64,000 bases of DNA, from NCBI GenBank assembly GCA_964016885.1, contig OZ024740.1, positions 225,928,001 through 225,992,000 on the forward strand. The letters are read 5' to 3'. Shown piece after piece: positions 8,311 to 46,039 of this stretch (within the stretch, counting starts at the first letter, position 1; each line of letters starts with the position of its first letter). The notes under the pieces are model-generated. The model saw only the letters and a list, made by a program, of their open reading frames with translations. It was not told where the DNA came from and ran no database searches. Source of the DNA: Eledone cirrhosa. Taxonomy: Eukaryota. Both the position numbers and the translations under genes were made by a program.

Positions 8311-9223
8311 GCAGTCTTTGTTACACACTCTGTATTTATACCAATATAAATGTTTCATACACTTCAGCTGACAGCACAGGTCTTACTACATAATTAATTA
8401 ATTACCAACACAAGCACTAATTATATGCTAATTAGTACATCCATTTCATATAATCATCAGAGTGAATTGGTATATATACTCATCAAATACATGTTTTCTT
8501 GTGGTTGATTGGATGCTTTACACACCTTCTGATGAGAGTCCAATTAGATCTGAAAATCAATTAAATATGTTTATCATTTTCTTCAATTTATAGGGTAATT
8601 CATATATTCTGGTAAGTTTACCTGCCTACATAGCCCAATATCGCCCAATTGTATCTCAACCTAACGGGAGATTATTAAATATAAAGATTTACATATACAT
8701 AAAGTCATAAATATATATGTTTGCAACCGGTAACGTTGTGGCTCAATGAAAAATTAATAAATTAAATAATCAGAGCTATATATCATAAATCATGTCCTTA
8801 GAATTATTAGATAAAATATATACCATTTCGTCTCCCAATTCGCATAATTAACCATATAAAAAATCAGTTAGACCAAGCTATAAGAATAAAGGCTCCTATG
8901 AAGAAATTTCCGACAAATAACCGAAAGCGACCTCTTCGCGGTAGCCCCGATAGAATATTTATCCAACATTTCAACAGCATGTAGAAACTGACTAAATATA
9001 CCGTCAACCATACACAATTAGGTGTAAATTCAAACTTAGAAGAATTGTGTACATACCGTAATTATATCTCTACTATTGCTATTCTAGCAACAAGCCTACC
9101 CGCCGTAAGCAACTAATCACATTCTTTCTAACTTGACCACTGCCACGTCACGATGCTTAGCCATTTTTTAATCTATTTTTGGCGCGATCACTTTGGAAAA
9201 TTAAGTGTCTAATTTTGAGTTTA

Positions 9224-9298
9224 CTCCTGATGAGTCCGATACTCTGGATACATCCTATTAATTGGACGTCTTAAAATACGGACGAAACCATGGTAGAG
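9224..9298 (+). ncRNA. Minimal type I hammerhead ribozyme
   Basis: CTC CTGATGA GTCCG-(40 nt)-CGGAC GAAA CCATGG TA GAG; palindromic stem III; predicted cleavage after 9295. Confidence 0.85.
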
Positions 9299-9864
9299 AT
9301 ATAATTACGGTATGTACACATTTCACCTAATTGTGTATGGTTGACGGTATATTTAGTCAGTTTCTATATGCTGTTGAAATGTTGGATAAATACTCTATCA
9401 GGGCTACCTGGAAGAGGTCGCTTTCGGTTATTTGTCGGAAATTTCTTCATAGGAGCCTTTATTCTTATAGCTTGGTCTAACTGATTTTTTATATGGTTAA
9501 TTATGCGAATTGGGAGAGGAAATGGTATATATTTTATCTAATAATTCTAAGGACATGATTTATGATATATTGCTCTGATTATTTAATTTATTAATTCTTC
9601 ATTGAGCCACAACGTGACCAGTTGCAAAACATATATATCTATGACTTTATGTATATGTAAATCTTTATATTTAATAATCTCCCGTCAGGTTGAGATACAA
9701 TTGGGCGATATTGGGCTGCGCTTTCTAACAACAAGCCTACCCGTCGTAAGCAACTAATCACATTCTTTCTAACTTGACCACTGCCACGTCATGATTCTTA
9801 GCCATTTTTGAATCTATTTTTGGCGCGATCACTTTGGAAAATTAAATGTCTAATTTTTAGTTTA

Positions 9865-9939
9865 CTCCTGATGAGTCCGATACTCTGGATATATCCTGTT
9901 AATTGGATGTCTAAAAATACGGACGAAACTATGGTAGAG
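9865..9939 (+). ncRNA. Minimal type I hammerhead ribozyme (second array copy)
   Basis: CTC CTGATGA GTCCG...CGGAC GAAA CTATGG TA GAG. Confidence 0.8.
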
Positions 9940-10289
9940 ATATATTTACGGTATGTACACATTTCTTCTAAGTTTGAATTTACACCTAATTGTGTATGGT
10001 TGAAGGTATATTTAGTCAGTTTCTACATGCTGTTGAAATATTGGATAAATACTCTATCGGGGCCACCGGGAAGAGGCCGCTTTCGGTTATTTGTCAGAAA
10101 TTTCTTCATAGGAGCTTTTATTCTTGTAGCTTGGCCTAACTGATTTTTTATATGGTTAATTATGCGAAATGGGAGAGGAAATGGTATATATTTTATCTAA
10201 TAATTCTAAGGACATGATTTATGATATATATATATATATGTGTGTGTATATGTGTATATATGTATATATATATATATTTATATAAATAT

Positions 10290-10830
10290 ATAGTAATAAT
10301 AATAAATTTGAAGATTAAAATCCAAAGAGGGCTCGATAAGGATAAATATATATCAGATATATAAGAACCGTAAAGCAAATATTTATTAAAATAACAGATT
10401 AAAGTTTAAGAAAGGAATCGCTGCTTTCACCCTTAACGGGATCTTCTTAAACTAAAAAAGTCAATCTGTGAACGCAGAAGTAAATATTTCTAAAAAACCT
10501 TGCAACCGAAGGAAGACAGGATCACGATACTTTGGTTCGGGTAAACGTTCCCTGGCAAAGAACAGAAAAAAACGAAGATAATACGTCATTATTTGGAGCA
10601 GTGAAAACAATTACACGTAAAGACAAAACCACGTTTATGGTATAAATGAAGTCGTAGACTAATATTCTATTAGGTGGTTCATGGAGACGTTCTCTGGCAA
10701 TGAGCGGAAAAAACGAAGATAATACGTCATTATGTGGAGCAAAGAGGACAATTACACGCGAAGACAAAACCACGTAATTGGTATAACTGAAGTCGTAGAC
10801 TAAAATTCTATTTAGGAAACCGAATGATTC
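10290..10830 (-). mobile_element. Repeat terminus shared with 15295-15422, plus two internal ~150-bp direct repeats
   Basis: 10290-10436 matches 15295-15422; AAAAAACGAAGATAATACGTCATT...GAAGTCGTAGACTAA occurs at ~10567-10662 and ~10708-10803. Confidence 0.6.
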
Positions 10831-11505
10831 TCGGCTTCATAGTTAAGAATGAAGTAAATAAAATACAGAGGTAATTGAAATTAAATATATACATACACGC
10901 ATCCATATACGTACATACACAATCATACGCGAAAACACTCGCCATGGGTAAGCAAATACAAGCACGTACACAAAAAACAACAAAAAAAAACACGCACGCA
11001 CATACAAGTCCCACGCAACACCTGTACCCGCACACATACGAACGTAACTCCAAATAAACATAAAAATATATATAAAAACAAATATACATATACATGTGTG
11101 TGTGTGTGCGTGTATACATAATTAAATAAACGTATATAAATATACACACATAAATACGTATATAACGCGTCTACACACACACACCTACATGTAAATACAC
11201 ATATGTTCGCGGACGTACGTCAACCAAAACACAAAGTACACATAAACACACACCCTACATACGTACGAACCCGCATACTCACACGGGCGCAAAAGTCACG
11301 TATACACATAACCAAATGCACATGTACCAGTATATATAATATATACGCCAAAAACATATACAAGCAAATATACGTACGAGAAAGTATACGTACCTTCATA
11401 AAACATACAGGTAATAATACTTACCTATAAGAATAAGTAATTGTATTAACATAACATATACTTAGCTGCCACATCAAGACGTAAATTATCCGCGTATAGT
11501 TCGTA

Positions 11506-13690
11506 CTATCCGTGAGGGTATAATGTGGGGCTGTAATACAGGAAAATGTTGTACAATTTATGTTTACAAGCCGAAATTGCCTCAGATTTTTTGTTTAAGA
11601 TGTGGTCTGTGGCGAAGAGTATTTCCAGGGCCTCAGCGGCGCAGAGGTCACAAGATCTTTTATTTCCGTTATACGATCTAGCCCTAGCTAGGATCTCCCA
11701 GTGTAATTTATATTGGGTGTGGTTGTCTTTTAGACTACAGATATAAGCTGAAAGTGACGTCATATTCCTTCTTAACGGGTTAATAAAAGAATGGGTATGC
11801 ATGTAAAGACGCTGCTTGAATCTATTGGCGGTTAAACCTATGTAGGCCCTACGGGACGTGGGTGTTTCAACCTTACATTTGTAGACAATGTTACTAGAGA
11901 GGCATTTCCCGGATAGGGGCACTCAACCCGATTCCTACAATTACAGTTAGTACTAGCTACAGGGTTGCACGTGTTCCTACGGCTAGGTAATTTAGCTAAA
12001 TTTGAAGCTGTGATGTTATGTGCAAGGTTAGGAGTCGTAGAGTAATAAATTTTAATGGTATTTCTATTAAAAATGTTACTATATTTATGTGCTGGGGGGA
12101 AATGCTTCATAATAAGGGAGAGAAAGATCTTAGCTAATGGTGTGACCACCTCCAAATTATATGGTGGGTTATACCATATAATGCGTCGGGATCTATTTTT
12201 CCTAGGTCTATTCTCGTACTCTGTGTAAGCTACCTTATCGACAAATATACTCCGTGCAAGAGCTTCATTGTAATATGTGAAATGGTCGTTGAAAATATGC
12301 TCGTTTGTAGATAGACGGGAAAACCTCAAAGAAACATTCCTTACCAGGTTCTTGGTTATGCTGGCAGGATGGTTAGAATGCTTACTTATGTAATTAAGCG
12401 TATCATTCGGCTTTCTATACGGGTAGTGCAAGCCATTCGACAAACCGAGGGTAACGTCGAGGTAATTAATGACCGAGATATTGGCCTCAACCTATATGGA
12501 GAGGTTAAAGCCTTTAAAGAAGGCTGTGAGTTCTTTTCTGAACCTGTCACAAGCACGTGGGCCCACTTTGCCATGGCCAAACGACCGTCGTCACGGTACA
12601 AACCACCGCCCACGTAGGAGAATGTTTCCTTAATAGAGAAAAGAAGGAAAAGGCCGATAAGATCAGTAACCTCCGCAGAATCGCTGGCGCCCATACTCAC
12701 GTCGAATGGGGTAATATTAGATGTTTTAATCCAAATAGAGTCGTCGAAATTAATCATCGACTTACGGGCATTGAGGATGACATCAACTTCGAAATCCTTA
12801 ACCACTGTGAGGGTTTTAGCGAAATTGATAGCTCTAAGGAGAAGTGATAAAGTGATGGAGGAGGATTAATTATTGATGTCGAATTGGATAAAACGGTAAT
12901 GTTGCTTGTTGCATATGCCGTTGAACCAATCAATCACGGCGAAAGAATTGTTCCACTGTGCAAGAGGAACTTCTAATTTCAGTTATAATTCTATCTAAAA
13001 TCCTTTTACTAAATCTACCTAAATCGGACTTCGTAGGGTTAATAAGCCGAATAGAGGGGTTGTTCGGGAAATTAGATTTGTGATCCTTCGGGGTAAAGTG
13101 GTGAGAAATAGGGTCCAGAGGTTCGAGCCGGTCCAGGATGTTGAGATCAGAGGTGATCTTAAACCCAGCATCGTTGATTTCATTAATGACGCTCCGATTA
13201 GTTACAGCATTATGTAGCAGTTGATGGTAAGTGCTGCGCTTCACTTGATATAGATTGCCAGTTTTGTCGGAATGGACGTGCACGGCATTAGAATCCTTAA
13301 TAGAACGAATTCTTTTCTTCAGGTCCTGCTGGAAGGAATTGCTCCTATTCCGAAATTTGACACTCCGTATGAGTTCCAAGACATCATTTTCGAAGGGTAG
13401 CAATGCTGGGTTACTCGGAGGGTTATTATAGGTTTTAAACCCAAATTTATCCTGTTTGTTGTCTGCTTTTCCCTGATTATCGAAATAAAAGGCACGCCAA
13501 CGCAACCTTTTAACGAACGCGTCTGTTTTCTGTATCAGGAGTTTTAGGTATGATTTCCTGCTTGGTACGGGTATGTTCTTTGTAGAAATATTCAGATGTT
13601 GTTTCTGCATGATGAATATAAATCAATAGAGTGCTCAACCGAGGGATCCAAATAAGTATGCGGATAGGGAGTTGACTTATGTTTCGTCAC
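11506..13690 (-). mobile_element. Near full-length Penelope-like element with RT and C-terminal GIY-YIG endonuclease (probably Hydra clade), frameshifted
   Basis: ORF pieces 12930-13610 (SDKTGNLY, KDHKSNFPNNPSIRLINPTKS), 12386-12805 (FDVSMGASDSAEV, GLYRDDG), 11838-12443 (PYRKPN..NYI...SNHP, CNCRNRVECP), 11506-11922 (IVYKCKV...YIGLT..RFKQRLYMH, CDLC, LNKKSE...CKH). 3' boundary uncertain; clade call is from recalled motifs. Confidence 0.9.
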
Positions 13691-13804: not shown

Positions 13805-13898
<94 letters not shown>

Positions 13899-13937
13899 AC
13901 ATTAAATAAATGGAAACTATATTTATAAAACCATATT

Positions 13938-14002
13938 TATTTTATTATATATATTTCAAGGTCAACCAAGACAACATTGGTACGCCTTCATCAGAGAAAA
14001 TA
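13938..14002 (-). ncRNA. Type I hammerhead ribozyme, family C (inverted copy)
   Basis: Reverse-complement copy of 14119-14183 with a few substitutions. Confidence 0.6.
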
Positions 14003-14118
14003 CAAAGTTTGTTTTATAAATAGAGACGTACCCATGAAAATCATACCTTATCGGTTGGAAATTCAACCGATAAGGTATGATTTTCATGGGTACGTCTCTA
14101 TTTATAAAACAATCTTTG

Positions 14119-14183
14119 TATTTTATCTGATGAAGGCGTACCCATGTTGTCTTGGTTGCCCTTGAAATATATATAATAAAATA
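14119..14183 (+). ncRNA. Type I hammerhead ribozyme, family C
   Basis: TATTTTAT CTGATGA AGG...CTT GAAA TATATA TA ATAAAATA: 8-bp stem I, palindromic stem III, weak stem II. Confidence 0.7.
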
Positions 14184-14312
14184 AATATGGTTTTATAAAT
14201 ATAGTTTCCATTTATTTAATTTCATTGAATATTTACTTCAGTAGGTTGTTGAGTGCTCTAAATCAGTTATAAACATTTGTCGGACTTCCAACAAATTAAA
14301 TACAACTTCTAG

Positions 14313-16526: not shown

Positions 16527-18100
16527 ATTGTTGTAATAATATTGCCAGAATTAATAACAGAACACACTCACTGTTTGGTTGGCTTTCGCTTCTGTATCTT
16601 TTATATCAGTTAATTTATTCGGTCCTCAATGTTTACCATCGACTGACCAACGGTCAAAAAATACAGATATAATATAGATATAAACACATATATATAGTCT
16701 AACAAAGTTCTTTCGTTGCACATCTGCAACATCGTCAGTGGTGCTATTATTATGTTCCTCCTGTTGTATTGTATATCTACGCCATCTTTATATAATCTGT
16801 TTATTTATTTATTTATTTATTTTTGTCTTCTCTGCGCATGCGTTTGTGTGTGTGTATAGTGTTTGGAGTGTGTTCGCGTTTGGGTGACTGTGTTTTGGTT
16901 GTTGTATTCTATCTTAGTTTATTAGTGTGTGTCTACATGTGTTTGTTGTTATTGTGCTTGTGTATATATTTATTTATTTATTTATATTTCTTTTAGGTCA
17001 GTATTGTTTGTTTGGGTGTCGTTGTTATTCCATTCACTTTTTCTATTTAGCTTTGGCTTTCTAAGTTCTATTTCACTTGTATCTCTGATTTGCCTATCTG
17101 CTGGGTCATTTCTATGTTTAGATATTATTTTAATTTCTATGTTGTCTATGCTACCATCATGTTGTTGTCTGGCGTGTTCGTATAGTACTGAACCGTTTTT
17201 TTCGTCCTTTTAGTCCCCCCCCCCCCCCGTGTTAGTCTATCTTTTCGCCTATGCTACGAGCTGTCTCGCCTATGTAAGTTGTTGTCATGTTTCTGCAAGT
17301 AACCTCTGTACAACTTATGCTATAGACTACGTTTCTTGTTTTACAGTTTATCCAGGGGTTTACTTTACATATAATACATTTCCTATTAGTACAGTGAGTT
17401 TTCTTAAAAGGGTATGTTTTGCTGATCAGGGATTTTATGGTAGTTCCTGGATTTTCTACCACCTTAATCTTTAAGTGGGTCTTTCTCAGGGCCTTTCTAT
17501 ACTGGTTAGCTAATTTCCCTCCAGGAGTAGCGTCCACAAACATGACACTGTGGTATCTCTGGTTGTCATACCATGAGGTGGCTTTCCCTATCTTATGTTT
17601 AGTCCTATCTCAGCAATTCCATAATTTGCTCCTGTATAATGGGCAAATTCCTTTCATGTCCAGTTCTATAAGGGTTCTATACTTCTCCGTGGCTCCTTCG
17701 TATACTCTGATTCTGTCTCTTTCGTTGTAGCCAGAGAACTGCATGCGATTGATGAAGTGTTGGATGTGTCTTTCCATTTCTGTTGGGTCGCACATGCGAG
17801 ACACATTCTTCATCACTCGTACCAAGTCTGCGATCAGAATATTAAACTTAGCACTACTGGACAATGCTGAGTTTTAGAGTATCAGGTATTTGGAGGCCAT
17901 GGGTTTAGCGTAGTGTGAGTGGAAAATGTGGGCCCTCTCGTCTATAGTGTTAATCCAGAGTTCCGTGTGTAATACAGGTAGTCTACTGTTAGGGTGTTTG
18001 GAAGGGTAGTCGATAATTACAGTTATACTCTGGTGCATGGAATTAGCTACCTGCTGGATGCTTTCCATTGTACTACATTCTAAATCATACTTGTTAGTAC
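16527..18100 (-). mobile_element. 5'-truncated Penelope-like element (RT C-terminus, GIY-YIG, 3' end); sister of 19860-23497
   Basis: DYPSKHPNSRLPVL, YAKPMASK, MQFSGY, CKTRNVVYSISC...YIGETARS; nucleotide similarity to 19890-21440. Confidence 0.9.
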
Positions 18101-18111
18101 TCTCTTGTAAA

Positions 18112-19095: not shown

Positions 19096-19160
19096 TGAGG
19101 GACAGATATATATAAAATAAAATAAATAAGTCAAGTGTTTAAAATTTGGCTTCGTTTACT

Positions 19161-19215
19161 ACTGCTATATATATTTCGGTGACAGCCATCTTTGGCTGTG
19201 ACCTCTTCAGGCAGT
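19161..19215 (-). ncRNA. Minimal type I hammerhead ribozyme, family A
   Basis: ACTGC CTGAAGA GGTcACAGCCA AAGA TGGCTGTcACC GAAA TATATA TA GCAGT. Confidence 0.9.
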
Positions 19216-19421
19216 CCAAATTAGTGTGGTAGAGACGAGTACACATGTTGTTGAGGTGTATAACTTTGTCAATACTCTGATATGCCCAGTTCCTGGTTGG
19301 GTTGTTATTTCACTGAGGAACTGGAATCATAACAACCCAACCAGGAACTGGGTATGTCAGAGTATTGACAAAGTTATACACCTCAACAACATATGTACTC
19401 GTCTCTACCACACTAATTCGG

Positions 19422-19476
19422 ACTGCCTGAAGAGGTCACAGCCAAAGATGGCTATCACCGAAATATATATAGCAGT
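19422..19476 (+). ncRNA. Minimal type I hammerhead ribozyme, family A
   Basis: ACTGC CTGAAGA GGT...ACC GAAA TATATA TA GCAGT, directly followed by AATAAA. Confidence 0.88.
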
Positions 19477-19710
19477 AATAAACGAAGCCAAATTTTAAAA
19501 TTTGACTTATTTATTTTATTTTATTTTACATTACTCCGGAGTAACCAAACCAACCTGCGCACTTCGTCGAGTGCTCCATTCTGCATACTGAGGTGTTGGT
19601 ATACAACCAACATATACTCAAAATTTATGTATATATATATATATACATATATATATATGTGTATGAATATATGTATAGGTATATATATATGTATATATGA
19701 ATATATTTAT

Positions 19711-19860: not shown

Positions 19861-22800
19861 TGTTATACTTGGGAAGGGTCATATTTGTGTAATATTGCCA
19901 GAATTAATAACAGAACACATTCACTGTTTGGTTGGTTTTCGCTTCTCGCTGTCTTTTATATCGGTAATCTAACTTACTCGGTCCTCAATGTTGCCATTGA
20001 CTGACCGACGGTCAAAAAATAATACAGATACAATATAGACACAAACACATATATATAGTTTATCATAAATCTTTCGTTGCACATCTACAACATCGTCAGT
20101 GGTGTTATATTTTCCTCCTGTTGTGTTGTATGTCTACGCCATTTTTATTCAGTCTGTCTATATATTTATTTATTTATTTGCTTGTTTGTTTATTTTATTT
20201 TGTTTTTTTTGCGCATGCGTTTGCCTGTGTGTATAGTGTTATGTTTGTTGTGTGATGGGTGACTAGTGTGTGTTTATGTGCTTGTTGTTATTGTGCTTGT
20301 GTATGTATTTATTTATTTATTTATTTATCTTATTTGATTTACTTATTTATACTTCTCTTAGGTCACAGTTGTTTGTTTGGGTGTTGTTGTTATTCCATTC
20401 ATTCGTTCTGTTTAGCTTTGGTCTTCTAATTTCTATTTAACTGGCCTCTCTGATTTGCCTATCTGCTGGGTCATTTCTATGTTTAGATATTATTCTAATT
20501 TCTATGTTGTCTATGTTACCGTCATGTTGTTGTCTAACATGTTCGTATAGTACTGACCCGTTTTTTCGTCCTTTTAGTTCCCCCCAGTGCTGGTCTATCC
20601 TTTCACCTATGCTACGAGCTGTCTCACCTATGTATGTTGTTGTCATGTTTCTGCAAGTACCCTCTGTACATCTTATGCTATAGACTACGTTTCTGGTTTT
20701 ACAGTTTATCCGGGGGTTCACCTTACATATGATACATTTCCTATTGGTACAGTGGGTTTTCTTAAAAGGGTAGGTTTTTCTGATCAGGGATTTTATGGTG
20801 GTTCCTGGCTTTTCTACCACCTTTATTTTTAAGTGGGTCTTTCTCAGGGCCTTTCTACACTGGTGTGGCGTCCACAAATATGACACTCTGGTATCTCTGG
20901 TTGTCGTACCCTGAGGTGGCTTTCCCTATCTTATGTCTAGCCCTATCTAAGCTATTCCATGATTTGCTCCTGTATAATGGGCAAATTCCTTTCATGTCCA
21001 GTTCTATGAGGGTCTTATACTTTTCCATGGCTCCTTCGTATACTCTGACTCCGTCTCTTTGGTTGTAGCCAGAGAACTGCATGCGGTTGATGAAGTGTTG
21101 GATGTGTTTTTCCATTTCTGTTGGGTCGCACATGCGGGACACATTCTTCATCACTCGTACCAAATCTGTGATCAGAATATTAAACGTAGCACTACTGGAC
21201 ATTGCTTAGTTTTTGAGTATCAGGTATTTGGAGGCCATGGGTTTAGCATAGTGCGAGTGGAGAATTTGGCCTCTCTCATCTATAGTGTTAATTCAGAGTT
21301 CTGTGTCTAATACAGGTAGTCTATTGTTAGGGTGTTTGGAAGGGTAGTCGATAGTTACAGTTATACTCTGGTGTATGGAATCAGCTATCTGCTGGATGCT
21401 TTCCATCGTGCTACGTTCTAAATCAAACTTGTTAGTGCTCTCTAGTGGGGGTGTTCTTATAACTATATTGATATCGTCTACATAACGAGAGTACATGATG
21501 AGGTCTATGGAGCTTTCATTAAGGAGATATTTAAGTCTCCTTTCCCACCATACCATGAAAAGGTTGGCAACATCACCAGCTATGCTGACGCCGATGGCTG
21601 CTCCCTCATTTTGGGTGTAGATTTTCTCATTGAACTTAAATATGTGGCCCTTTAGGGTAGTTTTGATACTAGCCCCTATTGCATGTGCGACCATTTTTCT
21701 TACCTGATCATTGTTTTGGGGGTCCATATAGCTTTGGTCCACCCAATCCACCTTCCCATGGGAGTCTTTTTTGCCATTGAGGTTATGGTGGGGGGTCTAC
21801 CTCTTATAGGTCTACTAGGGCAGAAACATCTAAGGTCATGGCTGTCTAGGTAGTCAGTGTCGTAGGTAAGTCTAAGTAGGGGCCCAGTTCGTCTGTGTCG
21901 ACGTCGCAGAACTCCACCTCACTCTCAATGATCATCTCCACACATCTTTTCAAAGCAAAATCAATGTTAATGGATGGGTACAGTGACACCACATCCATGC
22001 TGCCTATTATGCAGTTGGATAGGCTCCTGTTTTTGTTGCACTCACTGATTCTGCTGAGGAGGTCCTCTGTACTGTCACATACATCTGGGGACATCTTATT
22101 ATGGGGCGTATAACCATTGAGAGGAAGTAGGAGATCCTGTAGTTGCTAGCTATATTAGCTCCGCATACGGGTCTTGTTGGTGGTCCTGTTGTCGGGTCGT
22201 CGACTGTCTTGTGGTCTTTGCGGAGCCCATACAAGGGTGGTATGCCATAGTTAGACGCCTGGAAGTTGTTGGCCGTGCGTCTGCTTGGCTTTAGGATGTC
22301 AGTCCACATCATCATGTGAGCGTTGAGGATTTTTTCTCTCCCATCGTGTGTTTGTTGTGCAATTTCGCTCGTGTTGGTGATATGGGGTTGCATAGCCTCG
22401 ATGTAGTTCGGCATGCTATCTATTGACATCCTACCAGACTTATCCGTGGGTAGACACACTACCTCACCATCCCTTGTGCGCTGCTTGAGGCTAACCAAGC
22501 CTTCTACAGGTTTCCTCCCAAGTTGTTGGGCCTCTGGTCTGCTCTGTCTCTTAGTATACCTGTCTACTATTCGTCTAATCTTATTTCTAGCTATGGTGAA
22601 CTGTGCCTCTGTCTCGTCATCTATTTGTTGTGGTATGCAAACTCTTTTATTAAAGGGTAACCTCGTAGGATAGATATTACCCATCTTATATGTTTTGTCA
22701 GCTGGGTTGAAAAATAGTTTCTCTAAGGGTTTGTCATTATATCTATCGTCATAGTTGTGTGTGTTGCTATTATTGTTATCAGGGTGGTTGTTGTTGTTTC

Positions 22801-45305: not shown

Positions 45306-45372
45306 CATATATATATATATAATATTAAATAAATAAATAAGTCAAATGTTTAAACATTTTTCTTCGTTTATT

Positions 45373-45427
45373 ACTGCTATATATATTTCGGTGACAGCCA
45401 TCTTTGGCTGTGACCTCTTCAGGCAGT
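45373..45427 (-). ncRNA. Minimal type I hammerhead ribozyme, family A
   Basis: Same as 19161-19215. Confidence 0.9.
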
Positions 45428-45804
45428 CCGAATTAGTGTGGTAGAGACGAGTACACATGTTGTTGAGGTGTATAACTTTGTCAATACTCTGATATGCCCA
45501 GTTCCTGGTTGGGTTGTTATTTCACTGAGGAACTGGAATCATATGAATTTAAACAAACGAATTCCAGCGTCAAAGGACATCTCTCATTGGTCAGTTGTGA
45601 GAACATTCCTCAGTCAAAAGTCTATAGAAATTCGTTCTGAGGCGAGGCAATCTGTAGTGGTTGTTCTTGTTATTGTTAAGTACATTTGACCTCTACTCTT
45701 ATGTTGGTAATGGTGTTGGTGTTGGAGGAACTGGGCATATCAGAGTATTGACAAAGTTAAACACCTCAACAATATGTGTACTCGTCTCTACCACACTAAT
45801 TCGG

Positions 45805-45859
45805 ACTGCCTGAAGAGGTGACAGCCAAAGATGGCTGTCACCGAAATATATATAGCAGT
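45805..45859 (+). ncRNA. Minimal type I hammerhead ribozyme, family A (perfect 11-bp stem II)
   Basis: ACTGC CTGAAGA GGTGACAGCCA AAGA TGGCTGTCACC GAAA TATATA TA GCAGT. Confidence 0.92.
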
Positions 45860-46001
45860 AATAAACGAAGCCAAATGTTAAACATTTGACTTATTTATTT
45901 ATTTTATTTTACATTACTCCGGAGTAACCAAACCAACCTGCGCACTGCGTCGAGTGCTCCAACCTGCATATTGAGGTGTTGGTAACCAACAGATACTCAA
46001 A

Positions 46002-46039
<38 letters not shown>

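What the first reader, a model, noticed from the sequence alone, without database searches (positions are those of the whole stretch)
8631..10228. ~650-nt hammerhead tandem array whose inverted 5' segment starts at the ribozyme cleavage site
Seen: two direct units, each with a minimal type I HHR (cores at 9227 and 9868), a partial third unit running into (TA)n, and a 5' block (8631-9073) in reverse orientation. The inverted block covers the unit from about 5 nt before the predicted GUA|GAG cleavage site to ...TTGGGCT, which is where the first direct copy resumes (~9078). Un-inverting it gives a continuous ~2.5-mer beginning at the cut site. No RT or endonuclease motif was seen in the unit. Established: non-LTR retrozymes and PLE pseudo-LTRs carry such minimal HHRs, and palindromic stem III (CCATGG) favours dimeric cleavage. 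Inference: this is a cDNA copy of a self-cleaved multimeric or circular non-coding RNA, integrated with a twin-priming-type inversion, i.e. a candidate large retrozyme mobilised by PLEs.
Basis: partly seen in the sequence, partly recalled or inferred. Interest (0 to 1): 0.75.

Follow-up and report, generated by a model that had tools for sequence, protein, structure and literature searches.

The report
Hammerhead retrozyme with cut-site fossil ends
This is one copy of a dispersed 650-base non-coding repeat that carries a predicted self-cutting RNA motif and sits in TA microsatellites, likely pasted there by a borrowed Penelope-type retrotransposon enzyme; it is a known kind of element, but some copies stop exactly at the predicted cut, which suggests the RNA really did cut itself before being copied.

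Summary
The repeats and both hammerheads are real, but there is one full and one partial direct unit (no third), and stem II is long, not minimal. The unit is an ORF-free family: 581 exact hits of one end, roughly 1,600 estimated. No attached PLE ORF was found in about 215 insertions. Copies end at two fixed sites about 103 nt apart in (TA)n. Of 118 back-to-back pairs, 78 are A+B, 1 A+A and 1 B+B, as in an autonomous Penelope-like family here (10 of 10). L1-type twin priming fails family-wide; this locus is atypical. Its inverted block starts 3-6 nt before the cut. Family-wide, 18 of 33 breaks at positions 212-220 fall exactly on the cut, while about 85% of copies read through. Stem II covaries. 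Verdict: new member of a known kind (non-LTR retrozyme / non-autonomous PLE). The scan reported the same two-start pattern in other genomes. The circular RNA is untested.

The parts
8632..9076 (-). Inverted arm, unit positions 212-657; outer end atypical (neither start site A nor B), inner end 3-6 nt upstream of the predicted cut
9077..9081 (.). Inversion junction, about 5 nt, partly matching unit positions 2-4
9078..9718 (+). Full direct unit, 641 nt (family unit about 658 nt; this copy lacks 18 nt)
9224..9298 (+). Type I hammerhead 1: 3-bp stem I, core at 9227, 5-bp stem II with ~40-nt extension, 2-bp stem III with palindromic loop; predicted cut 9295|9296
9217..9244 (+). Candidate 4-bp pseudoknot between 9217-9220 and 9241-9244 (weak support; first pair broken in copy 2)
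9557..9570 (+). Start site A, read through here (3' end of one arm class in the family)
9645..9673 (+). Start site B, read through here; its motif resembles one 3' end of a young autonomous PLE family
9719..10229 (+). Partial second direct unit ending at start site A
9865..9939 (+). Type I hammerhead 2; core at 9868; one C>T change in the palindrome; predicted cut 9936|9937
10224..10292 (.). (TA)n target microsatellite; the left flank ends in ...CAT, consistent with insertion at its edge (inferred)

Best explanation
This is one insertion of a dispersed, ORF-free 658-nt hammerhead repeat (a non-LTR retrozyme, i.e. a non-autonomous Penelope-like element) that is likely copied into (TA)n microsatellites by a PLE RT/GIY-YIG protein supplied in trans. 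Shown: dispersal, (TA)n flanks, two fixed 3' ends about 103 nt apart with one on each back-to-back arm, variable 5' truncation, arms up to about 2.9 units, covarying stem II, and an excess of 5' ends at the predicted cut. Inferred: the protein nicks both strands of (TA)n and starts one cDNA at internal site A and one at site B on the same or a sister RNA. The hammerhead cuts inefficiently, probably as a dimer through its palindrome. Most templates are uncut multimers or re-ligated circles (these give the same sequence; I put the circle at about 45%), and a few per cent are cut linear RNAs on which RT runs off. This window copy is an atypical product, most likely a 1.6-kb A-primed copy of uncut RNA whose 5' 445 nt are inverted (about 55%), otherwise a normal two-arm insertion that lost the outer part of its B arm.
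For: Family size: 581 and 235 exact hits of end A and end B plus (TA)n, controls 0. 281 of 333 arms end at A or B, 258 of them in (TA)n (inflated because 120 of the 260 loci were sampled by those ends, but also seen in loci sampled by the unit or hammerhead). Pairs: 78 A+B, 1 A+A, 1 B+B, 38 with an atypical end, of 118. The same rule holds in an autonomous RVT_1+GIY-YIG family, 10 of 10 pairs. Two internal RT starts explain the PLE tail in vitro (PMC11167929). No shared upstream flank among 42 non-TA 5' flanks, and no ORF C-terminus abutting a unit. 37 of 166 end-sampled arms exceed one unit. Units of one locus are usually close kin: median distance 0.032 for 28 tandem pairs and 0.037 for 33 inverted pairs, against 0.096 family-wide. 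Stem II has two-sided changes in 4 of 5 pairs (GC 42, AU 14 at the first pair). 18 of 33 breaks at positions 212-220 lie at 218, P 1e-9; P 2e-4 in the most conservative count (hand tally).
Against: No cleavage or RNA data. The active fold is 6-9 kcal/mol above the minimum-energy fold of a single motif and Rfam scores are sub-threshold. There is no overall pile-up of breaks near the cut: 15 of 100 in 50 nt against 14 of 100 in a control stretch (hand tallies). 35 of the 78 rows stop at 221, where (TA)n microhomology confounds, and were left out of the test, as were 8 substitution or deletion rows and 2 ambiguous or duplicate rows. The parent PLE was not found: 14 ORF-bearing loci showed no UTR homology beyond one short motif. 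About 215 of an estimated 1,600 or more insertions were examined. In this locus the arms are not nearest neighbours (distance 0.048, ranks 25 and 9 of 215). 8 of 9 Xenopus retrozyme dimers did not cleave in vitro.
Confidence: 0.8

Rival explanations
1. The unit is the ordinary pseudo-LTR of an autonomous PLE family that I did not sample; the copies are its 5'-truncated insertions.
For: Same anatomy as autonomous PLEs. The genome holds very many PLE ORFs. Only a fraction of copies was examined.
Against: Long arms run from unit into unit, up to about 2.9 units, never into an ORF. No shared alternative upstream flank among 42. Of the first 100 of 397 copies at positions 12-61, 86 continue as unit and the rest break into unrelated flanks (hand tally).
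Confidence: 0.08
2. It is a non-autonomous PLE derivative whose hammerhead is a passenger: only uncut read-through transcripts of tandem loci are copied, and no monomer or circle matters.
For: About 85% of copies read through the cut. In the anole PLE, HHR mutants still insert and no reads began at the cut. Autonomous copies here are also tandem.
Against: Single-base peak of 5' ends at the cut. Compensatory changes across subfamilies. In two loci both arms stop at or near the cut (L197: 218 and 228; L249: 218 and 216).
Confidence: 0.3
3. One reading: a cleaved RNA starting at the cut was integrated by L1-type twin priming, as the rule for the family.
For: In this locus the inverted block's outer end abuts the direct arm's start within about 5 nt. 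A stop at 218 plus junction filler cannot be excluded (my estimate about 10%).
Against: 6 of 78 A+B pairs are continuous within 30 nt, 7.2 expected; 68 of 78 overlap. The block retains 3-6 nt upstream of the cut. No other (TA)n-flanked end at this position.
Confidence: 0.07
4. A locally amplified satellite or DNA-level duplication with a chance hammerhead.
For: Segmental duplicates of one locus exist (C12).
Against: Dispersed over many chromosomes, fixed 3' ends, variable 5' ends, covariation.
Confidence: 0.02

Closest known systems
Metazoan non-LTR retrozymes (Cervera & de la Pena 2020, PMC7229834, passages read; Li, Clavereau & Pollet 2026, bioRxiv 10.64898/2026.07.22.740005, parts 1-3 of 5 read)
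   Same: Non-coding, low-GC (34%) tandem units with one type I HHR each; dispersed monomers to multimers; co-occur with PLEs; unit length within the 51-972 bp range; monomers fold somewhat better than shuffles (z -1.1 to -4.0 in 7 monomers, controls +1.1 to -1.8).
   Different: Longer than the 170-400 nt RNAs shown to be circular. Short stem I and extended stem II rather than canonical loop contacts. Full PLE insertion anatomy (inverted arms, two starts, (TA)n), not described in the text I read ('inverted' occurs 0 times in PMC7229834). No RNA evidence here.
EN+ Penelope-like elements and their pLTR hammerheads (PMC4209133 and PMC8557442, passages read; PMC11167929, parts 1-2 of 4 read)
   Same: Partial tandem plus inverted 5'-truncated arm; tail on one end only; AT-rich or microsatellite targets; short stem I, palindromic stem III; most copies made from RNA not ending at the cut.
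   Different: No ORF. Tail about 103 nt against 30-40 bp. Strict one-start-per-arm rule, whereas the anole PLE showed no strand difference in vitro. 5' ends at the cut are seen, whereas none were found in anole RNA-seq.
Non-autonomous Chlamys elements such as MRC1 (PMC8557442, passage read)
   Same: Non-autonomous PLEs with pLTRs and multicopy head-to-tail insertions.
   Different: Those resemble their autonomous partner at the 3' end and belong to a group described as lacking canonical HHRs; here only a ~30-nt start-site motif is shared with a candidate partner.
L1 twin-priming inversions (recalled, no call)
   Same: Inverted 5' segment abutting a direct 3' segment in this one locus.
   Different: Family arms overlap and end at two fixed internal sites; no poly(A) tail.

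Membership tests
Non-LTR retrozyme | Tandem units each with a type I HHR | tested here: met
   Two cores in the window; arms to about 2.9 units; core intact in 144 of 165 regions, many sampled by the core itself
Non-LTR retrozyme | No protein-coding capacity, no attached ORF | tested here: met
   about 215 insertions examined, not all
Non-LTR retrozyme | Dispersed as a mobile element, with PLEs in the genome | tested here: met
Non-LTR retrozyme | Self-cleavage | tested here: inconclusive
   Indirect only: covariation and peak of 5' ends at the cut
Non-LTR retrozyme | Monomeric linear and circular RNA accumulates | not testable with these tools
Type I hammerhead | Conserved core, stems I-III, NUH triplet | tested here: met
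   91.9% of cells paired in 62 copies; triplet GUA
Type I hammerhead | Rfam gathering score (RF00163) | tested here: not met
   17.1 bits against 34; the long stem II insertion probably lowers it
Autonomous EN+ PLE | RT + GIY-YIG ORF between pLTRs | tested here: not met
PLE-type insertion | Inverted 5'-truncated arm, tail on one end, AT-rich target | tested here: met
   same in an autonomous family
PLE-derived | Homology to the pLTR of an autonomous PLE | tested here: inconclusive
   Only a ~30-nt start-site motif, noticed after the fact (0 of 2000 shuffles reach the score)
L1-type twin priming | Inverted and direct segments adjacent and non-overlapping on one RNA | tested here: not met
   6 of 78 against 7.2 expected; met only in this locus

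The most novel reading that the evidence does not exclude
The genome preserves a full retrozyme life cycle. The hammerhead cuts in the germ line (fossil 5' ends at the cut), the 658-nt monomer is ligated to a circle, and a young PLE protein that recognises a shared start-site motif copies that circle from two fixed starts, one per DNA strand, into (TA)n. The young ~900-aa PLE family and this RNA would be a ready in vitro pair to test how animal retrozymes move and what PLE hammerheads are for.
Probability: 0.3. Interest if true: 0.68.

Novelty: new member of a known kind. Interest (0 to 1): 0.42.

Why it matters
That PLEs mobilise animal retrozymes is proposed from co-occurrence and pLTR phylogeny, with the mechanism stated as open. 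The role of PLE hammerheads is also open: cleavage was dispensable in vitro and not seen in RNA-seq. Here the copy ends show PLE-type insertion of an ORF-free hammerhead repeat, a one-start-per-arm rule shared with an autonomous family, and a single-base excess of 5' ends at the cut. I did not find such end statistics in four paper searches; supplements were not read and subscription papers are not searched. The element class itself is known.

Tried and rejected
RNA evidence: no RNA holder listed; laying two contig runs of one sample showed only that many relatives are present. Rfam: only sub-threshold hammerhead hits and (TA)n-driven miRNA hits. Unconstrained folding of the motif does not give the hammerhead fold (z -0.6 to -2.0). 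The narrow core pattern missed the motif because stem II is long. Coding remnant in the unit: none. Third start site near position 657 to explain this locus: 2 hits, both indels; the pattern could not have listed the window's own end. A cluster of 5' ends at positions 40-53 as a transcription start: not above background. Pseudoknot: one two-sided change in 2 of 62 copies, 8 one-sided, 8 unpaired at that pair; left as a lead. The neighbouring PLE at 10291-12416 as parent: no similarity. No earlier notes exist for this genome.

Full report
OBSERVATION. The region holds an inverted block (8632-9076) that is 93% identical to 9290-9717, and a direct repeat (9082-9570 against 9723-10229, 92%) ending in (TA)n. 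That is one full unit of 641 nt and 0.77 of a second. There is no third direct unit; about 2.45 units result only if the block is un-inverted. Hammerhead cores lie at 9227 and 9868, with predicted cuts after 9295 and 9936. The motif has a 3-bp stem I, a 5-bp stem II extended by about 40 nt, and a 2-bp stem III whose 8-nt palindrome can pair between two copies (-13.2 kcal/mol). It is below Rfam gathering. No coding signal was found.

THE FAMILY. The window lies in a 3.0-Gb genome. The unit search filled its candidate list (4095; 40 scored, 120 matches). Positions below refer to a 658-nt mapping reference made in a script: core at 150, cut after 217, end A at 510, end B at 610-613. End A plus (TA)n occurs exactly 581 times and end B plus (TA)n 235 times, reversed controls 0. 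Since 39 of 106 A ends not sampled by that pattern match it, there are roughly 1,600 A ends (rough). Of 333 distinct arms, 281 end at A or B (partly by sampling). Subfamilies diverge down to about 73% identity.

INSERTION ANATOMY. The typical insertion is two arms joined at their 5' ends, with both 3' ends in (TA)n. Of 118 such pairs, 78 are A+B, 1 A+A, 1 B+B and 38 have an atypical end. A young autonomous family (RVT_1 + GIY-YIG; ~900-aa frames, tandem copies; clade not tested) has two ends about 45 nt apart and pairs them the same way in 10 of 10 detected cases. This fits the PLE tail and inverted arm (PMC8557442, passages) and the two internal RT starts shown in vitro for an anole PLE that nicks and extends both strands (PMC11167929, parts 1-2 of 4). 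It is not L1-type twin priming (model recalled): the B arm starts within 30 nt of A+1 in 6 of 78 pairs, 7.2 expected, and the arms overlap in 68 of 78.

NON-AUTONOMY. 37 of 166 end-sampled arms are longer than one unit, the longest 1,939 nt, always unit into unit. Among about 215 insertions, 42 arms had a non-(TA) 5' flank; none shared it with another, and the 3 with protein matches were mid-frame or on the opposite strand. The sequences downstream of 14 long frames showed no homology to the unit, except a ~30-nt likeness between end B and one end of the young family (0 of 2000 shuffles). That likeness was noticed after the fact, is AT-rich, and is the upstream site in the PLE but the downstream site in the unit. 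It names a candidate helper, no more.

IS THE HAMMERHEAD ACTIVE? In 62 of 165 motif regions (head of a shuffled list, skipping duplicates and several with deletions), 91.9% of cells pair, and 4 of 5 stem II pairs change on both sides (relatedness inflates the shuffle control). Most copies read through the site: 15 of the first 100 of 568 break within 50 nt, against 14 of the first 100 of 397 in a control stretch (hand tallies). At single-base scale there is a peak. Of the 78 rows, 35 stop at 221, where (TA)n microhomology confounds; 8 are substitutions or deletions; 2 are ambiguous or duplicate. Of the remaining 33 at positions 212-220, 18 stop at 218, the first base after the cut, and no other position has more than 4 (P 1e-9; 1e-5 without six rows of a variant subfamily; 2e-4 counting those against). 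Such arms measure 293 nt from A or 396 nt from B, the lengths expected from a cut RNA. I infer that a few per cent of templates were cleaved RNAs. A single motif does not favour the active fold, in line with dimeric, inefficient PLE-type hammerheads (PMC4209133, passages).

CIRCLE OR MULTIMER? Tandem units within an insertion are no more divergent than the two arms (median 0.032 in 28 pairs, 0.037 in 33; family 0.096), and 21 of 28 have their partner among the five closest of 215. That fits copying round one circle, and also a homogeneous tandem source. Circular monomers fold modestly better than shuffles (z -3.6 for the window; -1.1 to -4.0 for six others; controls +1.1 to -1.8). A ligated junction and an uncut junction have the same sequence, so DNA cannot decide.

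THIS LOCUS. The right end is a normal A end. The left end at position 657 is neither A nor B, and no (TA)n-flanked end was found there elsewhere. It abuts the start of the direct arm within about 5 nt, so a one-off inversion of the 5' 445 nt of a 1.6-kb copy is plausible (about 55%); loss of the outer part of a B arm is the alternative. The inner end keeps 3-6 nt upstream of the cut, so it most likely came from uncut RNA; a stop at 218 plus filler is about 10% by my estimate.

COMPARISON AND NOVELTY. It meets the testable features of non-LTR retrozymes (PMC7229834, passages). The 2026 preprint (parts 1-3 of 5) gives consensus lengths of 51-972 bp, argues for PLE origin, and found cleavage in 1 of 9 dimers; its supplements could not be seen and may list similar families. 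After I had reached this reading, the scan's own notes showed the same two-start (TA)n pattern in other genomes (unchecked AI notes, not evidence). What this case adds is the single-base peak at the cut, the pairing rule shown side by side with an autonomous family, and a candidate helper.

VERDICT. A real feature and a new member of a known kind. Interest 0.42.

Noticed in passing
window 10291-12416 (-): Broken PLE-type frame (11509-12416, 85-93% to another genomic copy) with a ~1.2-kb 3' region containing a 141-bp tandem (10545-10812), inserted in the same (TA)n from the other side. Other copies begin at offsets 1 and 89, suggesting two 3' ends 88 nt apart. No Pfam hit for its relative.
   Followed up: partly
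window 13886-14235, 19112-19524, 45317-46037: Further back-to-back inverted arms in (TA)n with hammerhead-like cores (13954/14127, 19174/19427, 45386/45810), from other PLE-type families.
   Followed up: partly
window 16537-18108 and 19890-21446: 1.6-kb direct repeat, 85% identical, each with a hammerhead-like core on the minus strand (16711, 20072).
   Followed up: no
L321-L340: Young autonomous RT + GIY-YIG family, 96-98% identical over 200 aa in 150 scored copies, ~900-aa frames, tandem and inverted copies, one 3' end resembling end B of the unit.
   Followed up: partly
G000:C3:258129932, C5:36071000, C14:18583288, C14:18585895: Four places share a variant that seems to lack the cut site and stem III, possibly a spreading ribozyme-dead subfamily.
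   Followed up: no
window 9308-9315 and about 9130-9160: A splice-donor-like motif just after the cut and branch-point- and acceptor-like motifs upstream of the hammerhead; PLEs can carry introns. Motif labels are recalled; untested.
   Followed up: no
L009-L016 (C12:17.0-17.5 Mb): One insertion repeated eight times at about 60-120-kb spacing, a segmental tandem duplication; counted once in most tallies.
   Followed up: no
window 8400-8631: The left flank is itself repetitive (contig depth 500-1,800) and holds two degenerate hammerhead-like cores at 8444 (-) and 8529 (+).
   Followed up: no
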